A DNA stretch of 49,590 nucleotides from Octopus sinensis (taxonomy: Eukaryota): contig NW_021834353.1 in NCBI RefSeq assembly GCF_006345805.1, forward strand, positions 1-49,590, read 5' to 3'. Positions 491 to 34,528 of the stretch are shown in pieces. The notes beneath the pieces were generated by a model. The model was not told the DNA's origin and ran no database searches. It saw nothing but the letters and a program-made list of their open reading frames with translations. Each line of letters opens with the position of its first letter. Position 1 is the stretch's first letter. A program made the translations under genes and the position numbers.

Positions 491-1581
491 ATAAATATAT
501 GTTTAAGAAGACCTTTAACCAAATCAGGTGAGAAGTTACGCAAATTATATAAGTTAATGTAAATACATACAAAGACAACCTATTTTTTCACGCTACATTA
601 GGTTGTTAAATGCTTCTTTTATAATTCAAGAATTATTCGGTTTAACAAAAGTCTTTTATCTTTTATCGTGTACTTGTTTCAGTTTGACACCCAGGAAGAA
701 TGGAAAGGTCTTTGATGTTTCAAGCCTACGCCGTTCAACAGAGAGGATTGAGAGGGTGGAGATGGAGAGAAAAGGATTAAAAAAAGGAGAGAGAGAGAAA
801 GAGAAAATTTGTAGGGATTAACGGTTCAACATGATGAAATGACTGGAAGAAAGAGTCTGAGTGAAAGGGAGATAATGGCGGTGACCCGGCTAAACTAGGG
901 TGCGCAAGTGCGTGTGTGTATGTAAGAACGGTGTGTGTGTGAGTGTGTATGTGTGAATGGGTGCGAGCACGTGTGAATATATGTGTGGGCGAGCTTAAAA
1001 TTATGTGAGTCTGTGTGTGCATATGGAAGCGTGTGTGTTTGCGTTCGTTGTGTAGAGTGATGTACGTTTCGTGTATCTGTGTGTGTATGGATGTGTATAT
1101 ATGTTGTGATGTTATCTTGTGTGTGTATGTGCACGCGTGCTAACACTTGTGTGCTCACATTTCTTCTCTTAAGGTCAAGTTCAGTATTGGTAAGTAAATT
1201 GATAAACACTTACCTTCCTGCCACACATGTAGAATGCTTTTCAGTAAACACACGCTTAAAGCTTTATTCAGTTGCTTATCCAGCATGAAAGTATCATTTC
1301 GCTCACACTACCCCTAAGACTAGAGCCATTATTGTAGAGGTACCACCACTTGCTTGCTCAATGTTCACAGGAATGTAGAGGCCATTGTTTATGCATCCAG
1401 CATAAATCACTATAGCGGACTGTCGAATGGCCTAATTAAGAAACGCCTACACAACCACACCTTCAGAAACTTCACTACACTGGAAAACACAGTGGTTGAA
1501 GGAAAAGACTACATTCTATGACATCAAATATCTATTAAAACATACACACACACGCATTTTCTTTTTGTAACATATTTCTAC

Positions 1582-4589: not shown

Positions 4590-6100
4590 AGCTACCTGTT
4601 TTGTTCATCGTTCTTTAAATCTTAAGAAGGTCTTGCAGATTTTTACTGTCCCATACATCGTGATCACTTGTTGTTAAGATATTATGGAGTTGCGCTCTCA
4701 CCACAAGAACCCAATTTTAGCCAGTCTTTGCTCCAAGCGATTTGGTACGTATTCTGTTGCTTCAATAATTATAGATAGAAAGCTGTAAGTTTATCTTGGA
4801 TATTTGATTTGCGAACTTTTTATCAGTGGTTCATAAATTTCCTCTTTCCCCTCTGTTTCTAAGACATCCGTTAGTCTTAGAGACTTGGAACCTGGGACCT
4901 TGAAAGTCTATATTCGATCTTGTTGGCAAAGCAGTATCTATTGTGTCTGTAGAAGCACACACGTGACAATTCCAACTGCAGTGACAGCATTTGAAGGAAC
5001 TGTATTTCAGTTTGTCCTGGTGCTGGTTTCTCTTCGAGTGTCCTTTTCTTTAGCACCAAAATCTCAGCTTTGCATCTTGCTCTTTAAACTCCCGATTGTT
5101 CCAGCCTTCCCTGTAAACGATGACTAACACTGTTCACATATATATACTTATTTCAACATGTTAAGCGTCTTCATATCTTTCTTGTAGATGTCCCTAAAAT
5201 AAAGATGAGGTTACCTTTATAATCGCTTCCCAGATGACAGCTCTTCAAACTGTAGGCCTTTCTGTTTCCTTCAGTCTGACATAAGGGTGGCAAAAGGTTG
5301 GATACGTTGACAAAAGCCAGGGTTTATTATTGGTGACATGGTCAGTCCCCTTGATATTCAGGAGTGTTTCCGGATGTGTAAATGGGTAGCACTGAGACAC
5401 TTCTTTTGTCTAAATCGACGCTCCAGACTCACTGCTGGTAAATCGATGTGCCGAGGACTGTTGACTGTAACTTTGATGTTCATTATTAGCTTGCTATTCT
5501 TCTAGACTCTCTTTATCAGTCTGGTGAGTGTTACAGCTGCTCTACAAATACGTTTCTAAATCCCAGGCTCTAGAGTGGAGTTGTGTGAACTCGGAGATTT
5601 TCTCCAGCTGGCAGTTGTCAGTGGCAATCGTATAGGAATGCTCAATACCTTTATCTAGCTTTTCATCTTCTTCAGACTGATAGTTAAAGTGAAGTCTTGC
5701 CAAACTCTTGAGTGGTTATCTCCGAATGTGATGCCAGCAAACTTACTCCTAAACCAGTATATCACATAAGTTGGTGGATACCCTCTACCGAGACACTGAT
5801 AAGCTTTCCTTCTATTCTTGTGTAAAGTTAGATGCTATCAGGTGATGTTCCAAAATCTTGTTAAAGCATGCTGGCAAAGAAAATGCTGGAGTGTGTAAAG
5901 GAAAGCACACTACCCTGTCCCACTCCACTAAAGGCTTCTCGTGGAAGAATCGTCAAAATGAATCAGCATATGATCTCAACGGTGATCTTAGGAGCCTACA
6001 AAGCAAGTTGAGTTTAATCCTAGGCGCCGGCAAGAGTCTCACTGAAGTGCATTAATGTAAATGCGAAATAACAGGTAATGTGGTTACGCCCGGTGCTGAG
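4590..6100 (-). mobile_element. Highly decayed non-LTR retrotransposon, probably restriction-like-endonuclease type
   Basis: Fragmentary minus-strand translation (C..C-H..., YRHN, IEATEYVP...RLAKIGF) resembles the RLE C-terminus; many stops and frameshifts. Confidence 0.45.
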
Positions 6101-32661: not shown

Positions 32662-32945
32662 CACGTCACGTGACCGACCAGACCATCAGATGTTGTTACA
32701 CATCGCTGGTCACAATGCTTTCGCATTGTTTTAGCCTTCGAATGACGCCAGCAGGCCGACAGAAGAAAGAGTGGGAGAAAGAGTGGTGAAAGAATACAGC
32801 AGGGATCGCCACACCCTGCCGGAGCCTCGTGGAGCTTTTAGGTGTTTTCGCTCAATAAACACTCACAACGCCCAGTCTGGGAATCGAAACTGCGATCCTA
32901 CAACCGCGGGTCCACTGCCCTAACCACTGGGCCATTGCGCCTCCA
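32660..32945 (-). mobile_element. SINE family C (tggaggcgcaatggcccagtggttaggg head)
   Basis: A box tggcccagtgg and B-box-like gtttcgattccc; a close copy lies at 34235. Confidence 0.85.
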
Positions 32946-33092: not shown

Positions 33093-33131
<39 letters not shown>

Positions 33132-33162
33132 AAGGGTGAAAAGGAACACACGAGTTGATATA

Positions 33163-33602
33163 TATGAAAAAACAAGTCAAAATAGAAAATGCTAAAATAA
33201 TTTTATAAAGAACATTTCAGTACCGGTTTCGGTCATTTTGAGACCTTTTCAACTGTAACGATTAAATAAATAAATTTGGAAAAATTAAAAGAAAAGTTTT
33301 TTTAAGGGAATGTTTGTATAGTGTTCAAATATAAGTGGCATTCTGCCTTTCTCTGTCTCCCTTGTTTGCACTTGTGTGTTCGAGGTCGTTGTAAATTCTT
33401 GGTAGGGTAGAAGAAGAAGAAGGTTGATGAGGAGAGGGGGTGGAAAACACCTACGCAAATTCCATAAACAAACCTTTCAATAGAAATATTCTCCTGAATT
33501 GAACTGCAACTGACCATTCAAAATACGACCATCAAGGCACTCCAAATTTTTCTGAAATGTTCTTTATAAAATTATTTTAGCATTTTCTATTTTGACTTGT
33601 TT

Positions 33603-33609
<7 letters not shown>
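33163..33609. mobile_element. 447-bp (TA)n-flanked element with perfect 58-bp inverted ends and a hammerhead
   Basis: 33163-33220 is the reverse complement of 33552-33609. Confidence 0.85.
33218..33255 (-). ncRNA. Minimal type I hammerhead motif with compensatory U3-A8 core
   Basis: cag-TTGAAAA-ggtc-tcaaaat-gacc-GAAA-ccgg-TA^-ctg; all three stems pair; stem I extends (cgtt/aatg). Confidence 0.7.
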
Positions 33610-33695
<86 letters not shown>

Positions 33696-33814
33696 TATAT
33701 ATAATATATATATATATATATAATACATATATATATATATACTATATATATAAATACATATATATATATGGAGCATGAGTAAGAAAGATAGACATACATA
33801 TGTATGTGTGTATG

Positions 33815-34234: not shown

Positions 34235-34528
34235 CACGTAATCACGTGACCGAGCAGGCTATCAGATGTTGCTAAACATCACTGGTCTCAATGCGCTTCG
34301 CATTGTTTTAGCCTTCAAATGACACCACCACGCTGGTTAAGCAAGCAGACCAACAGAAGAAAGAGTGAGAGAAAGTTGTGGTGAAAGAGTACAGCATGGA
34401 TCGCCACCACACCCTGTCAGAGCCTCGTGGAGCTTTAGGTGTTTTCGCTCAATAAACACTCACAACGCCCGGTCTGGGAATCGAAAACGCGAGTCCGCTG
34501 CCCTAACCACTGGGCCATTGCGCCTCCA
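34235..34528 (-). mobile_element. SINE family C
   Basis: Aligns to 32660-32945. Confidence 0.85.

What the first reader, a model, noticed from the sequence alone, without database searches (positions are those of the whole stretch)
33163..33609. Inverted duplication begins exactly at the predicted ribozyme cleavage site
Seen: the minus-strand hammerhead would cut GUA^CUGAAAUGUUC, with the 3' product starting at 33220. The 58-bp inverted copy on the plus strand starts at exactly CTGAAATGTTC (33552), with no homology upstream, and both arms run into (TA)n. Inference: one arm is a cDNA copy of an RNA whose 5' end was made by self-cleavage. That would be a genomic footprint of in vivo ribozyme activity during retrotransposition, producing a MITE look-alike.
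Basis: partly seen in the sequence, partly recalled or inferred. Interest (0 to 1): 0.75.

Follow-up and report, generated by a model that had tools for sequence, protein, structure and literature searches.

The report
Penelope insertion arm starting at ribozyme cut
Two truncated ends of a Penelope-like jumping gene sit head to head in a TA repeat, and one arm starts exactly where the element's hammerhead ribozyme is predicted to cut, a start point over-used across this genome, which likely records the ribozyme cutting its RNA in living cells.

Summary
A perfect 58-nt inverted repeat (33163-33220 / 33552-33609) is present, and the right arm begins at the base after the predicted GUA cut of a minus-strand minimal hammerhead.

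It is not a MITE. It is a head-to-head insertion of two 5'-truncated 3' ends of a Penelope-like retroelement (RT plus C-terminal GIY-YIG) in a (TA)n tract. The left arm carries the 35-nt "tail"; the right arm has none.

Genome-wide, 871 exact copies of the first 30 nt of the arm exist.
- 842 run on into the hammerhead.
- 17 arms (about 14 events) lose homology exactly at the cut.
- A control site 5 nt upstream shows 0 breaks of 14; one 4 nt downstream shows 8 of 18.
- A sample gives about 1 break per position upstream.

Three loci join the 5' hammerhead part of two other Penelope families, at their own predicted GUC cuts, to this 58-nt module.

In the window, the right arm likely copied the cleaved 58-nt RNA fragment. 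Synthesis then likely switched to the element RNA at the point where the other arm stops.

No direct RNA evidence was obtainable. Only about 2% of copies show the footprint. The scan has noted the same kind of case in other genomes.

The parts
33096..33127 (.). (TA)n microsatellite, left flank of the insertion (target)
   Evidence: Sequence reading. Many other copies of the family abut (TA)n in the same way.
33128..33162 (-). 35-nt 'tail' that follows the 58-nt module on the minus strand (TATAT + 30 nt). It matches the start of the sequence that follows the module in partial-tandem copies.
   Evidence: same sequence after the module in L003; 30 of 91 sampled copies carry a 30-42-nt extension (mode 39), 60 of 91 have none, and 1 runs on for at least 398 nt.
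33163..33220 (-). Left arm: 58-nt 3' module 'S' (CTGAAATG...TTTTTTCATA on the minus strand), contiguous with the hammerhead
   Evidence: 100% to the right arm.
33213..33260 (-). Minimal type-I hammerhead motif. It has helix I (3+4 bp), a U3-A8 core variant, a 4-bp helix II, and a 1-bp helix III with a palindromic CCGG loop. The predicted cut lies between 33221 and 33220.
   Evidence: Weak Rfam HH9 alignment. The minimum-free-energy fold gives helices I and II, and a dimer is 7.5 kcal/mol better than two monomers. Family variation sits at pair-preserving sites.
33221..33446 (-). 226 nt of the element's 3' untranslated / pseudo-LTR region upstream of the cut. This arm is 5'-truncated at 33446.
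   Evidence: 96-98% identity to more than 30 genomic copies. Maps to L176 5766-5992.
33446..33447 (.). Head-to-head junction of the two arms
33447..33551 (+). 105-nt sense piece (a') of the same element region. In the source element it lies immediately upstream of the point where the other arm stops (4-nt overlap).
   Evidence: 96.2% to L176 5665-5769, while the inverted arm ends at L176 5766. Identity is 87% to the commonest subfamily and 96% to L015.
33552..33609 (+). Right arm: the 58-nt module S alone. It starts at the base after the predicted cut, has no tail, and runs into (TA)n.
33610..33769 (.). Imperfect (TA)n, right flank of the insertion

Best explanation
The region is one head-to-head insertion of two 5'-truncated 3' ends of an endonuclease-bearing Penelope-like retroelement in a (TA)n tract, and its right arm was likely reverse-transcribed from the 58-nt 3' fragment left by hammerhead self-cleavage.

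**Shown**
- The family encodes RT followed by GIY-YIG.
- Its copies are 5'-truncated and often paired head to head.
- They end either at the 58-nt module or 30-42 nt further on (the 'tail').
- They sit in (TA)n.

**Inferred sequence of events**
1. Both DNA ends of a cut (TA)n target primed cDNA, as shown in vitro for another Penelope-like element (PAc).
2. The left end started at the tail site and copied through an uncut hammerhead for 226 nt.
3. The right end started at the module's end and ran off after 58 nt, because that RNA ended at the ribozyme cut.
4. It then switched, with 1 nt of microhomology, onto element RNA just upstream of where the first cDNA had stopped, and copied 105 nt more.
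5. The two cDNA ends were joined. This resembles twin priming in L1 elements.
For: **Family identity**
- RVT_1 scores 33.5 bits (cut-off 29.6) and GIY-YIG 23.6 bits (cut-off 22.6) on one strand of L177; GIY-YIG is also found in L176.
- 5' truncation and head-to-head pairs are frequent.
- 3' ends are bimodal: 60 of 91 without a tail, 30 of 91 with a tail, and 1 that runs on for at least 398 nt.
- Copies abut (TA)n flanks.

**Hammerhead**
- A weak Rfam alignment places the cut at GUA^C.
- In 61 unique rows the core pair is U3-A8 in 57. Pair 10.1-11.1 is GC 31 / GU 20 / AU 4. The other variable sites are pair-preserving or lie in loop 2.
- The minimum-free-energy fold gives helices I and II, and the dimer is favoured.
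- The U3-A8 variant and dimeric minimal hammerheads are described for Penelope-like elements (PMC4209133, parts 1-2 read).

**Excess of breakpoints at the cut**
- Of 871 exact copies of S1-30, 29 lack A at -1.
- Those 29 comprise 17 arms (about 14 events) that lose homology exactly there, 10 point mutants and 2 small deletions.
- Same test at -5: 0 breaks of 14 (Fisher p 1.5e-4).
- A sample of 106 copies gives 20 breaks over positions -1..-140, about 1.2 per position when scaled to 871 copies. P(17 or more) is about 2e-14.
- The filtered pattern (76 hits, classed by eye) gives 16 breaks at 0 against a mean of about 2.3 per position at +1..+10.

**Both-ends evidence**
- L037 (both arms) joins the family-3 hammerhead 5' part, ending GAAAC-UGCA-GUC, to S. 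The junction has the same 1-nt C ambiguity as in the window.
- L043 and L058 join the family-2 part, ending GAAAC-AUGCxU-GUC, to S.
- In their own copies these families continue with different 3' modules: 4 of 4 loci for family 3 and 11 of 11 loci for family 2.

**This locus**
- The sense piece maps to L176 5665-5769 and the inverted arm ends at L176 5766.
- L057 has the same layout.
- The tail is present on one arm only, as described for Penelope-like elements (PMC8557442 passages; PMC11167929 main text).
Against: - Only 17 of 871 copies (about 2%) break at the cut; 842 run through it.
- The +4 control has 8 breaks of 18. As a fraction, 17/29 against 8/18 is not different (Fisher p 0.38). If lambda is taken as 8, P(17 or more) is only 0.004. 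The excess is therefore a peak on a raised shoulder inside the module.
- Only two unfiltered control positions were run. The series was classed by eye.
- The hammerhead scores far below Rfam's threshold. Families 2 and 3 have C at core position 4 and get no Rfam match. No activity data exist.
- For the anole element PAc, ribozyme mutants still inserted in vitro, and no RNA-seq reads began or ended at the cut (PMC11167929).
- No RNA run with raw reads was available here.
- No listed contig bridges 33551|33552, so the junction rests on the assembly.
- The junction is ambiguous by 1 nt.
Confidence: 0.65

Rival explanations
1. Coincidence at this locus. The right arm is an ordinary, very short 5'-truncated copy, or a template switch during cDNA synthesis on uncut RNA, that happens to end at the cut site.
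For: - Short truncations inside the module are common: 8 breaks at +4 and about 2 per position at +1..+10.
- Background breaks of 1-4 per position predict that roughly a tenth to a fifth of the events at position 0 are unrelated to cleavage.
Against: - 17 arms at 0 against 0 at -5 and about 1.2 per position upstream.
- The cross-family junctions lie at two predicted cuts at once.
Confidence: 0.15
2. The reverse transcriptase stalls at the folded hammerhead without any cleavage, and switches template from that position.
For: - The site lies at the junction of helices I and III.
- Stalling could also explain the shoulder at +1..+10.
- The PAc ribozyme was dispensable in vitro (PMC11167929).
Against: - 842 of 871 copies read through the site.
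- Helix I is only 3+4 bp and helix II 4 bp. A stall would be expected on the 3' side of helix I, not at the scissile bond.
- It does not explain why the acceptor ends of L037, L043 and L058 are the 3' ends of other families' predicted 5' cleavage products.
Confidence: 0.08
3. Post-insertion DNA rearrangement. An original palindromic insertion (inverted arm + a'-B-S) lost the 222-nt B segment of the right arm by deletion in an unstable palindrome.
For: - Palindromic pairs with both arms complete exist (L002/L027, L102, L128, L165).
- Slippage deletions near the site exist, such as the AATGA|CTGAAATG class and L040, L048.
Against: - The deletion would need one edge at the cut and the other at the exact point where the opposite arm stops.
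- Only 1 nt of microhomology is present.
- The same layout recurs in L057 with other coordinates.
Confidence: 0.07
4. A DNA transposon or MITE with 58-bp terminal inverted repeats.
For: Perfect 58-nt inverted repeat, about 450 bp overall, AT-rich flanks.
Against: - The arms are the 3' end of an RT/GIY-YIG retroelement.
- In other loci the arms have any length from 0 to more than 1000 nt upstream of the module.
- The internal sequence is the element's own 3' region.
- The exact junction occurs only twice in the genome.
Confidence: 0.01

Closest known systems
Insertion architecture of endonuclease-bearing Penelope-like elements (Craig et al. 2021, PMC8557442, passages read; Arkhipova 2006 as cited there)
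   Same: - Strong 5' truncation.
- Partial tandems (pseudo-LTRs).
- An inverted 5'-truncated copy placed head to head.
- A 30-40-bp tail at one end only.
- (TA)n targets.
- A hammerhead near the 3' end.
- RT plus C-terminal GIY-YIG.
   Different: That description does not tie any copy boundary to the ribozyme cut, and calls the ribozyme's function 'still unclear'. Here a subset of arms starts at the cut.
PAc (Poseidon, green anole) in vitro mechanism (Frangieh et al. 2024, PMC11167929, main text read)
   Same: - Both DNA strands are cut and extended.
- Reverse transcription starts at two adjacent internal sites, and the interval between them is the tail. This matches the bimodal 3' ends here (0 or about 39 nt past the module).
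- AT-rich targets.
   Different: - In PAc the cut lies inside the ORF start. The ribozyme was not needed for insertion in vitro, and no reads ended at the cut.
- Here genomic junctions suggest that cleaved RNA is sometimes the template.
Minimal dimeric hammerheads of Penelope-like elements, including the U3-A8 core covariant of Schistosoma Cercyon (Cervera & De la Pena 2014, PMC4209133, parts 1-2 read)
   Same: - Type-I motif with a very short helix III and a palindromic loop.
- U3-A8 in place of C3-G8.
- Pairs of motifs on opposite strands 100-700 bp apart.
   Different: - That paper had no in vivo evidence and saw low activity in vitro.
- This family has a 4-bp helix II and a short helix I.
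- Families 2 and 3 here carry C at core position 4.
L1 twin priming and template-switch chimeras such as U6/L1
   Same: - An inverted and a direct segment that are contiguous in the source RNA with a few nt of overlap.
- Junctions formed when the reverse transcriptase reaches the 5' end of one RNA and continues on another.
   Different: - Here the second primer first copied a 58-nt ribozyme-released fragment.
- The enzyme is a Penelope-type RT with GIY-YIG, not an L1 ORF2 protein.
HDV-like ribozymes that set the 5' end of R2 and other non-LTR elements (cited in PMC4209133; original papers not read)
   Same: A self-cleaving ribozyme defines an RNA 5' end that becomes a DNA copy boundary.
   Different: There the cut defines the 5' end of the full-length element. 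Here it lies 58 nt from the 3' end, so cutting removes almost the whole element from the priming site.

Membership tests
Penelope-like elements, canonical EN+ (C-terminal GIY-YIG) | Reverse transcriptase followed by a GIY-YIG endonuclease on the same strand | tested here: met
   L177 951-2438(-) hits RVT_1 at 33.5 bits (cut-off 29.6), and the adjoining 584-994(-) hits GIY-YIG at 23.6 bits (cut-off 22.6); the L176 ORF hits GIY-YIG at 22.5-22.6 bits. These copies are degenerate, so the two domains lie in adjoining frames.
Penelope-like elements, canonical EN+ (C-terminal GIY-YIG) | Frequent 5' truncation, plus an inverted 5'-truncated copy head to head | tested here: met
   upstream lengths run from 0 to more than 1100 nt. 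Many minus/plus pairs are present (L098, L102, L104, L121, L125, L128, L134, L140, L152, L165 ...).
Penelope-like elements, canonical EN+ (C-terminal GIY-YIG) | Partial tandem copies forming pseudo-LTRs | tested here: met
   In L003 the module is followed by at least 398 nt of element 5' region. 1 of 91 sampled copies does the same. Rare in the sample.
Penelope-like elements, canonical EN+ (C-terminal GIY-YIG) | Optional 30-40-bp tail, often at one end only | tested here: met
   30 of 91 copies have a 30-42-nt extension; in L037, L059 and the window one arm has the tail and the other does not.
Penelope-like elements, canonical EN+ (C-terminal GIY-YIG) | RT groups with the Penelope/telomerase RT clade in a phylogeny | not tested
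   No tree was built and the clade (Neptune, Nematis, Poseidon) was not assigned. A CxxxxCxxC motif before the GIY-YIG was seen by eye in L003.
Hammerhead ribozyme, type I, minimal Penelope type | Conserved core CUGANGA ... GAAA ... cleavage after H17 | tested here: met
   The core is UUGAAAA ... GAAA ... GUA^C, which is the described U3-A8 covariant (alignment; PMC4209133). U3-A8 occurs in 57 of 61 unique rows.
Hammerhead ribozyme, type I, minimal Penelope type | Helices I and II supported by pairing and variation; short palindromic helix III allowing a dimer | tested here: met
   helix I pairs are 58-61 of 61, except one fixed A-A mismatch. Helix II pairs are 54-57 of 61, with GC/GU/AU at 10.1-11.1; dimer -27.1 against 2 x -9.8 kcal/mol. 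The copies are related by descent, so this is weak covariation.
Hammerhead ribozyme, type I, minimal Penelope type | Match to a curated Rfam hammerhead model at gathering score | tested here: not met
   20.9 bits against 52 for RF02275, and none at gathering. Families 2 and 3 get no match at E of 1 or 0.1 or better. Minimal Penelope-type motifs lack the helix III that these models expect.
Hammerhead ribozyme, type I, minimal Penelope type | Self-cleavage at the predicted bond | not testable with these tools
   Only indirect genomic junction evidence is available.
MITE / DNA transposon with terminal inverted repeats | Fixed terminal inverted repeats and internal sequence shared by many copies, with target-site duplications | tested here: not met
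   Arm lengths vary from locus to locus. The exact a'-S junction is found twice in 2.7 Gb. The flanks are (TA)n, so no duplication can be read.
Twin-priming-type inversion (L1 model) | Inverted and direct segments contiguous in the source sequence, with a few nt of overlap or loss | tested here: met
   the sense piece maps to L176 5665-5769 and the inverted arm ends at L176 5766. In L057 the sense piece is 5820-5843 and the inverted arm ends at 5842.
Non-LTR retrozymes (tandem hammerhead repeats giving circular RNAs) | Short tandem repeats, each with a hammerhead; circular RNA | not tested
   No tandem array of short units was seen in the loci read. Circular RNA could not be tested.

The most novel reading that the evidence does not exclude
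Penelope hammerheads do cut in vivo, and the element's reverse transcriptase routinely works on the cleavage products. Under this reading, synthesis starts at its internal site in the 58-nt 3' fragment, runs off at the ribozyme-made 5' end, and jumps end to end onto the 3' end of a 5' cleavage product, or copies a re-ligated RNA. The normal hammerhead-module junction, and the partial-tandem pseudo-LTRs, would thus be rebuilt at each cycle. Mis-jumps would give the about 2% of arms that start at the cut. They would also shuffle modules between families exactly at ribozyme sites, as in L037, L043 and L058, seeding new non-autonomous elements.
Probability: 0.2. Interest if true: 0.85.

Novelty: new variant of a known kind. 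Interest (0 to 1): 0.6.

Why it matters
**The open question.** Whether the hammerheads carried by Penelope-like elements act in living cells, and what they are for, is unresolved. [quoted passage not shown] Craig 2021 called the function 'still unclear'. Frangieh 2024 found no reads ending at the cut and no need for the ribozyme in vitro.

**What this genome adds.**
- Copy boundaries give a cheap, purely genomic read-out: an excess of arms starting at the cut.
- More tellingly, some junctions join the 5' product of one family's ribozyme to the 3' product of another's.

**If this holds up.** It would be the first in vivo trace of these ribozymes, would point to a side route (or a core step) of the insertion cycle, and would turn the question into a countable test in any genome rich in these elements.

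**Literature check.** My three searches found no paper that reports copy boundaries at the cut. The held library is incomplete and supplements were not read.

Tried and rejected
- **Rfam at gathering threshold** gave nothing. The many miRNA-family matches at loose E-values fall on TA/TG microsatellites or on the L037 palindrome and are artefacts.
- **RNA evidence.** No RNA holder was listed; all runs are contigs and 'RNA?' is a guess. Laying them gave short contigs, some of which bridge the cut. It gave no starts or ends, and no listed contig bridges 33551|33552. This says nothing about cleavage and does not verify the junction.
- **The repeat finder** was swamped by microsatellite pairs.
- **Removal of the 222-nt segment as an intron** was rejected. 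Its ends read CC...TA, not GT...AG.
- **Nested insertion of a short copy into a family-2 or family-3 element** was rejected. Nothing of those families follows the module in L037, L043 or L058.
- **A-tailing.** I first thought untemplated A-tailing pairing with the U5 tract explained the a'-S junction. One nt of microhomology (C) is enough, and L053, L036 and L057 show the same.
- **The L059 junction** lies at an internal site of another abundant repeat, not at an RNA end, so it is a plain template switch or target.
I stopped that step and classed those rows by eye.
- **An upstream series (-11..-1)** by pattern was therefore not run.
- **The search of earlier findings by place** found nothing near.

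Full report
**1. What is in the window**

Positions 33163-33220 and 33552-33609 are a perfect 58-nt inverted repeat. With the TATAT that follows both arms, the perfect match is 63 nt.

On the minus strand the left arm follows ...CAG-UUGAAAA-GGUC-UCAAAAU-GACC-GAAA-CCGG-UA. Rfam aligns this weakly to Hammerhead_HH9 (33201-33266 minus, 20.9 bits against a gathering score of 52, E 0.01-0.02). Nothing passes at gathering threshold. The alignment puts the scissile bond after GUA, between 33221 and 33220.

The right arm begins at 33552 with the same CTGAAATG. The sequence before it is unrelated to the hammerhead.

The left arm is followed by a 35-nt element sequence (33128-33162) before the (TA)n. 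Only the right arm abuts (TA)n directly.

**2. What family it belongs to**

The 501-nt region has thousands of first-look candidates in the window's own 2.72-Gb genome (3239, of which 40 were scored).

Oriented copies share homology far upstream of the arm. They differ in where that homology starts, and they are often arranged head to head.

The upstream part encodes a reverse transcriptase (RVT_1, 33.5 bits, cut-off 29.6). A GIY-YIG domain follows on the same strand (23.6 bits, cut-off 22.6).

The 3' ends are bimodal. Of 91 sampled copies with a whole module:
- 60 stop at the module;
- 30 run 30-42 nt further (mode 39);
- 1 continues for at least 398 nt into the element's 5' region, a partial tandem.

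Many 5' ends abut (TA)n.

These are the published hallmarks of endonuclease-bearing Penelope-like elements: 5' truncation, pseudo-LTRs, an adjoining inverted truncated copy, a one-sided 30-40-bp tail and (TA)n targets (PMC8557442, passages). The two 3' end classes match the two internal start sites of reverse transcription mapped for the anole element PAc, whose protein cuts and extends both DNA strands (PMC11167929, main text).

The inverted layout in the window is therefore the ordinary two-ended insertion of this class, not a MITE.

**3. The ribozyme motif**

The core carries U3 and A8 in place of C3 and G8. Helix III is one pair closed by the palindrome CCGG. Both features are described for the minimal, dimer-dependent hammerheads of Penelope-like elements, including the U3-A8 covariant (PMC4209133, parts 1-2 read).

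In 61 unique sequences from my sample:
- U3-A8 is kept in 57;
- helix I pairs hold in 58-61, apart from one fixed A-A mismatch;
- helix II pairs hold in 54-57;
- the sites that vary most are -40 (C/U opposite G), -39 (G/A opposite U), pair 10.1-11.1 (GC 31, GU 20, AU 4) and the length of loop 2.

The minimum-free-energy fold of the monomer gives helices I and II. Two copies gain 7.5 kcal/mol by pairing through ACCGGU.

The copies are related by descent and the module was fixed by my sampling, so this is modest support. There is no activity measurement.

**4. Is the cut site a favoured boundary?**

| Test | Anchor | Hits with non-canonical preceding base | True breaks |
|---|---|---|---|
| Cut site (0) | module bases 1-30 | 29 (plus 842 with canonical A) | 17 arms, about 14 events |
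| 5 nt upstream (-5) | -5 to +25 | 14 | 0 |
| 4 nt downstream (+4) | bases 5-34 | 19 (18 unique) | 8 |

Of the 29 hits at the cut site, 10 keep the hammerhead and are point mutants of A17, and 2 are small deletions. A script flagged 20 as breaks. I set aside three of these:
- L042, a diverged copy;
- L039, whose break lies at -14;
- L040, a 27-nt deletion.

The Fisher test for 17/29 against 0/14 gives p 1.5e-4.

A pattern demanding two non-canonical bases upstream, with positions -2..+10 left free, gave 76 hits. Classed by eye, these give:
- 16 breaks at 0, including 6 where an A or TA before the module could be chance;
- about 2 per position at +1..+10, with 6 at +4;
- about nine slippage deletions between two ACTGAAA repeats;
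- about fifteen copies with small indels.

For the upstream background I fetched 80 regions holding 91 of the first 100 places listed. They contain 106 hits to the module. By length of homology upstream of the cut:
- 20 end somewhere in -1..-140, which is 0.14 per position, or about 1.2 per position when scaled to 871 copies;
- 46 end at -144..-183;
- 6 end at +1 or inside the module.

Against a mean of 1.2, seeing 17 has P of about 2e-14. Against 4.1 (the downstream mean corrected for the filter) P is about 2e-6. Against 8 (the +4 value) P is 0.004.

So there is a real peak at the cut. It stands on a shoulder that extends a few bases into the module, with far fewer breaks just upstream. This is the shape expected if some templates end at the cut. 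It is not expected from random truncation.

None of the arms that start at the cut runs past the tail, so they are short 3'-terminal copies, not full-length elements.

**5. What is joined to the module at the cut**

- **Target-like (TA)n:** L041, L047.
- **An inverted copy of the element:** L044, L051.
- **A sense piece of the same element from further upstream**:
  - the window;
  - L053, which skips 628 nt;
  - L057 and L036.
- **Other repeats or unknown sequence**:
  - L033 and L050;
  - L059, joined at an internal site of an abundant repeat.

Three loci are the strongest evidence.
- In L037, both arms carry 58 nt ending ...GAAAC-UGCA-GUC directly before the module.
- In L043 and L058, the module follows ...GAAAC-AUGCAU/AUGCGU-GUC.

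These are the 5' parts of two other abundant families (804 and 394 first-look candidates). In their own copies they continue after GUC with different sequences:
- CGTGCGTATCAC... in 4 of 4 loci read;
- TCTAGATGCAGG... in 11 of 11 loci read.

Both families fold with a long helix I around that GUC, a short helix II and a palindromic helix III that pairs in a dimer. Their core reads CCGANGA, with C at position 4, and Rfam does not find them. Their ribozyme status rests on my reading of the motif.

Nothing of families 2 or 3 follows the module in these loci, so they are not nested insertions.

A junction that lies at the predicted cut of both partners is hard to get from DNA-level events or from polymerase stalling. 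It fits a jump of the reverse transcriptase from the 5' end of one cleavage product to the 3' end of another. It also fits ligation of the two products before copying.

**6. The window's own structure**

Against the long copy L176:
- the 296 nt left of 33447 are the antisense of L176 5766-6061 (tail, module, hammerhead, 226 nt);
- the 105 nt at 33447-33551 are the sense of L176 5665-5769, at 96.2% identity.

The sense piece thus ends where the inverted arm stops, with 4 nt of overlap. Its other end is fused to base 1 of the module. L057 repeats this layout at other coordinates (sense 5820-5843, inverted arm to 5842).

Contiguity of an inverted and a direct segment is the signature of twin priming as described for L1 (recalled, not read here).

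My reading, inferred:
1. Both ends of a cut (TA)n primed synthesis.
2. One cDNA began at the tail site and read through an uncut hammerhead to position 5766.
3. The other began at the end of the module on a cleaved fragment and ran off after 58 nt.
4. It re-annealed through one C to the still single-stranded RNA just 5' of the first cDNA, and copied 105 nt.
5. The two 3' ends then primed on each other.

The exact a'-module junction occurs only twice in the genome. The second copy, on contig C3, has different flanks and a different upstream piece.

**7. Limits**

- About 2% of copies carry the footprint.
- Unfiltered controls were run at two positions only, and one series was classed by eye.
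- The +4 shoulder is unexplained. It may reflect loss of a few terminal bases during joining.
- The hammerhead is sub-threshold for Rfam.
- No raw RNA reads exist for this organism in the tools.
- The junction at 33551|33552 could not be confirmed in independent contigs.
- The anole study found the ribozyme dispensable in vitro and saw no RNA ends at its cut (PMC11167929).

**8. Relation to earlier notes and to print**

The scan's own notes list the same kind of case in at least seven other genomes. Follow-up verdicts there range from 'over-used start point' to 'only mildly favoured'. These are unchecked AI notes on other DNA and I do not count them as evidence.

Three literature searches, and the passages and sections I read, did not turn up a report of Penelope copy boundaries or inter-family junctions at the hammerhead cut. 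Supplements were not read and the library is incomplete.

Noticed in passing
L095-L174 (sample of family copies); equivalent window position about 33392-33400 minus strand: 46 of 106 sampled copies begin 144-183 nt upstream of the cut, around (ATTC)ACAACGACCTCGAAC, and most abut (TA)n directly. This looks like a fixed RNA 5' end (a transcription start in the pseudo-LTR?) or a short unit of about 230 nt. Earlier scan notes describe a similar fixed start in other genomes.
   Followed up: partly
L102, L128, L134, L152, L165 and others: There are symmetric palindromes whose two arms have equal length (for example 150/150, 178/178, 176/176). In L128 the arms share a private base change. This suggests snap-back copying of one cDNA, or two copies of one RNA.
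   Followed up: partly
L186-L189 and L191-L201: Two further abundant Penelope-type families (804 and 394 first-look candidates) have hammerhead-like motifs whose core reads CCGANGA, with C at position 4. They have long helices I and palindromic helix III loops (UGCA, AUGCGU). In L186 the inverted arm starts within 1 nt of that family's own predicted cut.
   Followed up: partly
Genome places listed (for example C4:76356027, C22:4758437/4758779): About nine copies carry the same 12-nt deletion, AATGA|CTGAAATG. It lies between two ACTGAAA repeats that flank the cut in the GACT subfamily. It is either slippage or a small subfamily that has lost helix III and the cut site.
   Followed up: no
window 32666-32718 and 34242-34294: A 53-nt direct repeat (87% identity, 1576 nt apart), TCACGTGACCGACCAGACC..., flanks the whole TA-rich block. 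The same sequence, reversed, lies next to (TA)n in L129. It is probably another dispersed repeat associated with TA microsatellites.
   Followed up: no
window 32900-32945: This is a tRNA-like SINE fragment (...CCACTGCCCTAACCACTGGGCCATTGCGCC) next to a (CA)n/(TA)n tract.
   Followed up: no
L059 / L178-L185: The sequence fused to the module in L059 belongs to a repeat with 834 first-look candidates at 96-98% identity. That repeat continues past the fusion point, and the fusion follows a GTA with one extra T.
   Followed up: partly
L034 (G000 C3:105651884): A second locus has TTCCAAATTTTT fused to base 1 of the module, as in the window. Its preceding 40 nt differ and it has no inverted arm. This may be a recurrent acceptor site or an old relative.
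   Followed up: partly
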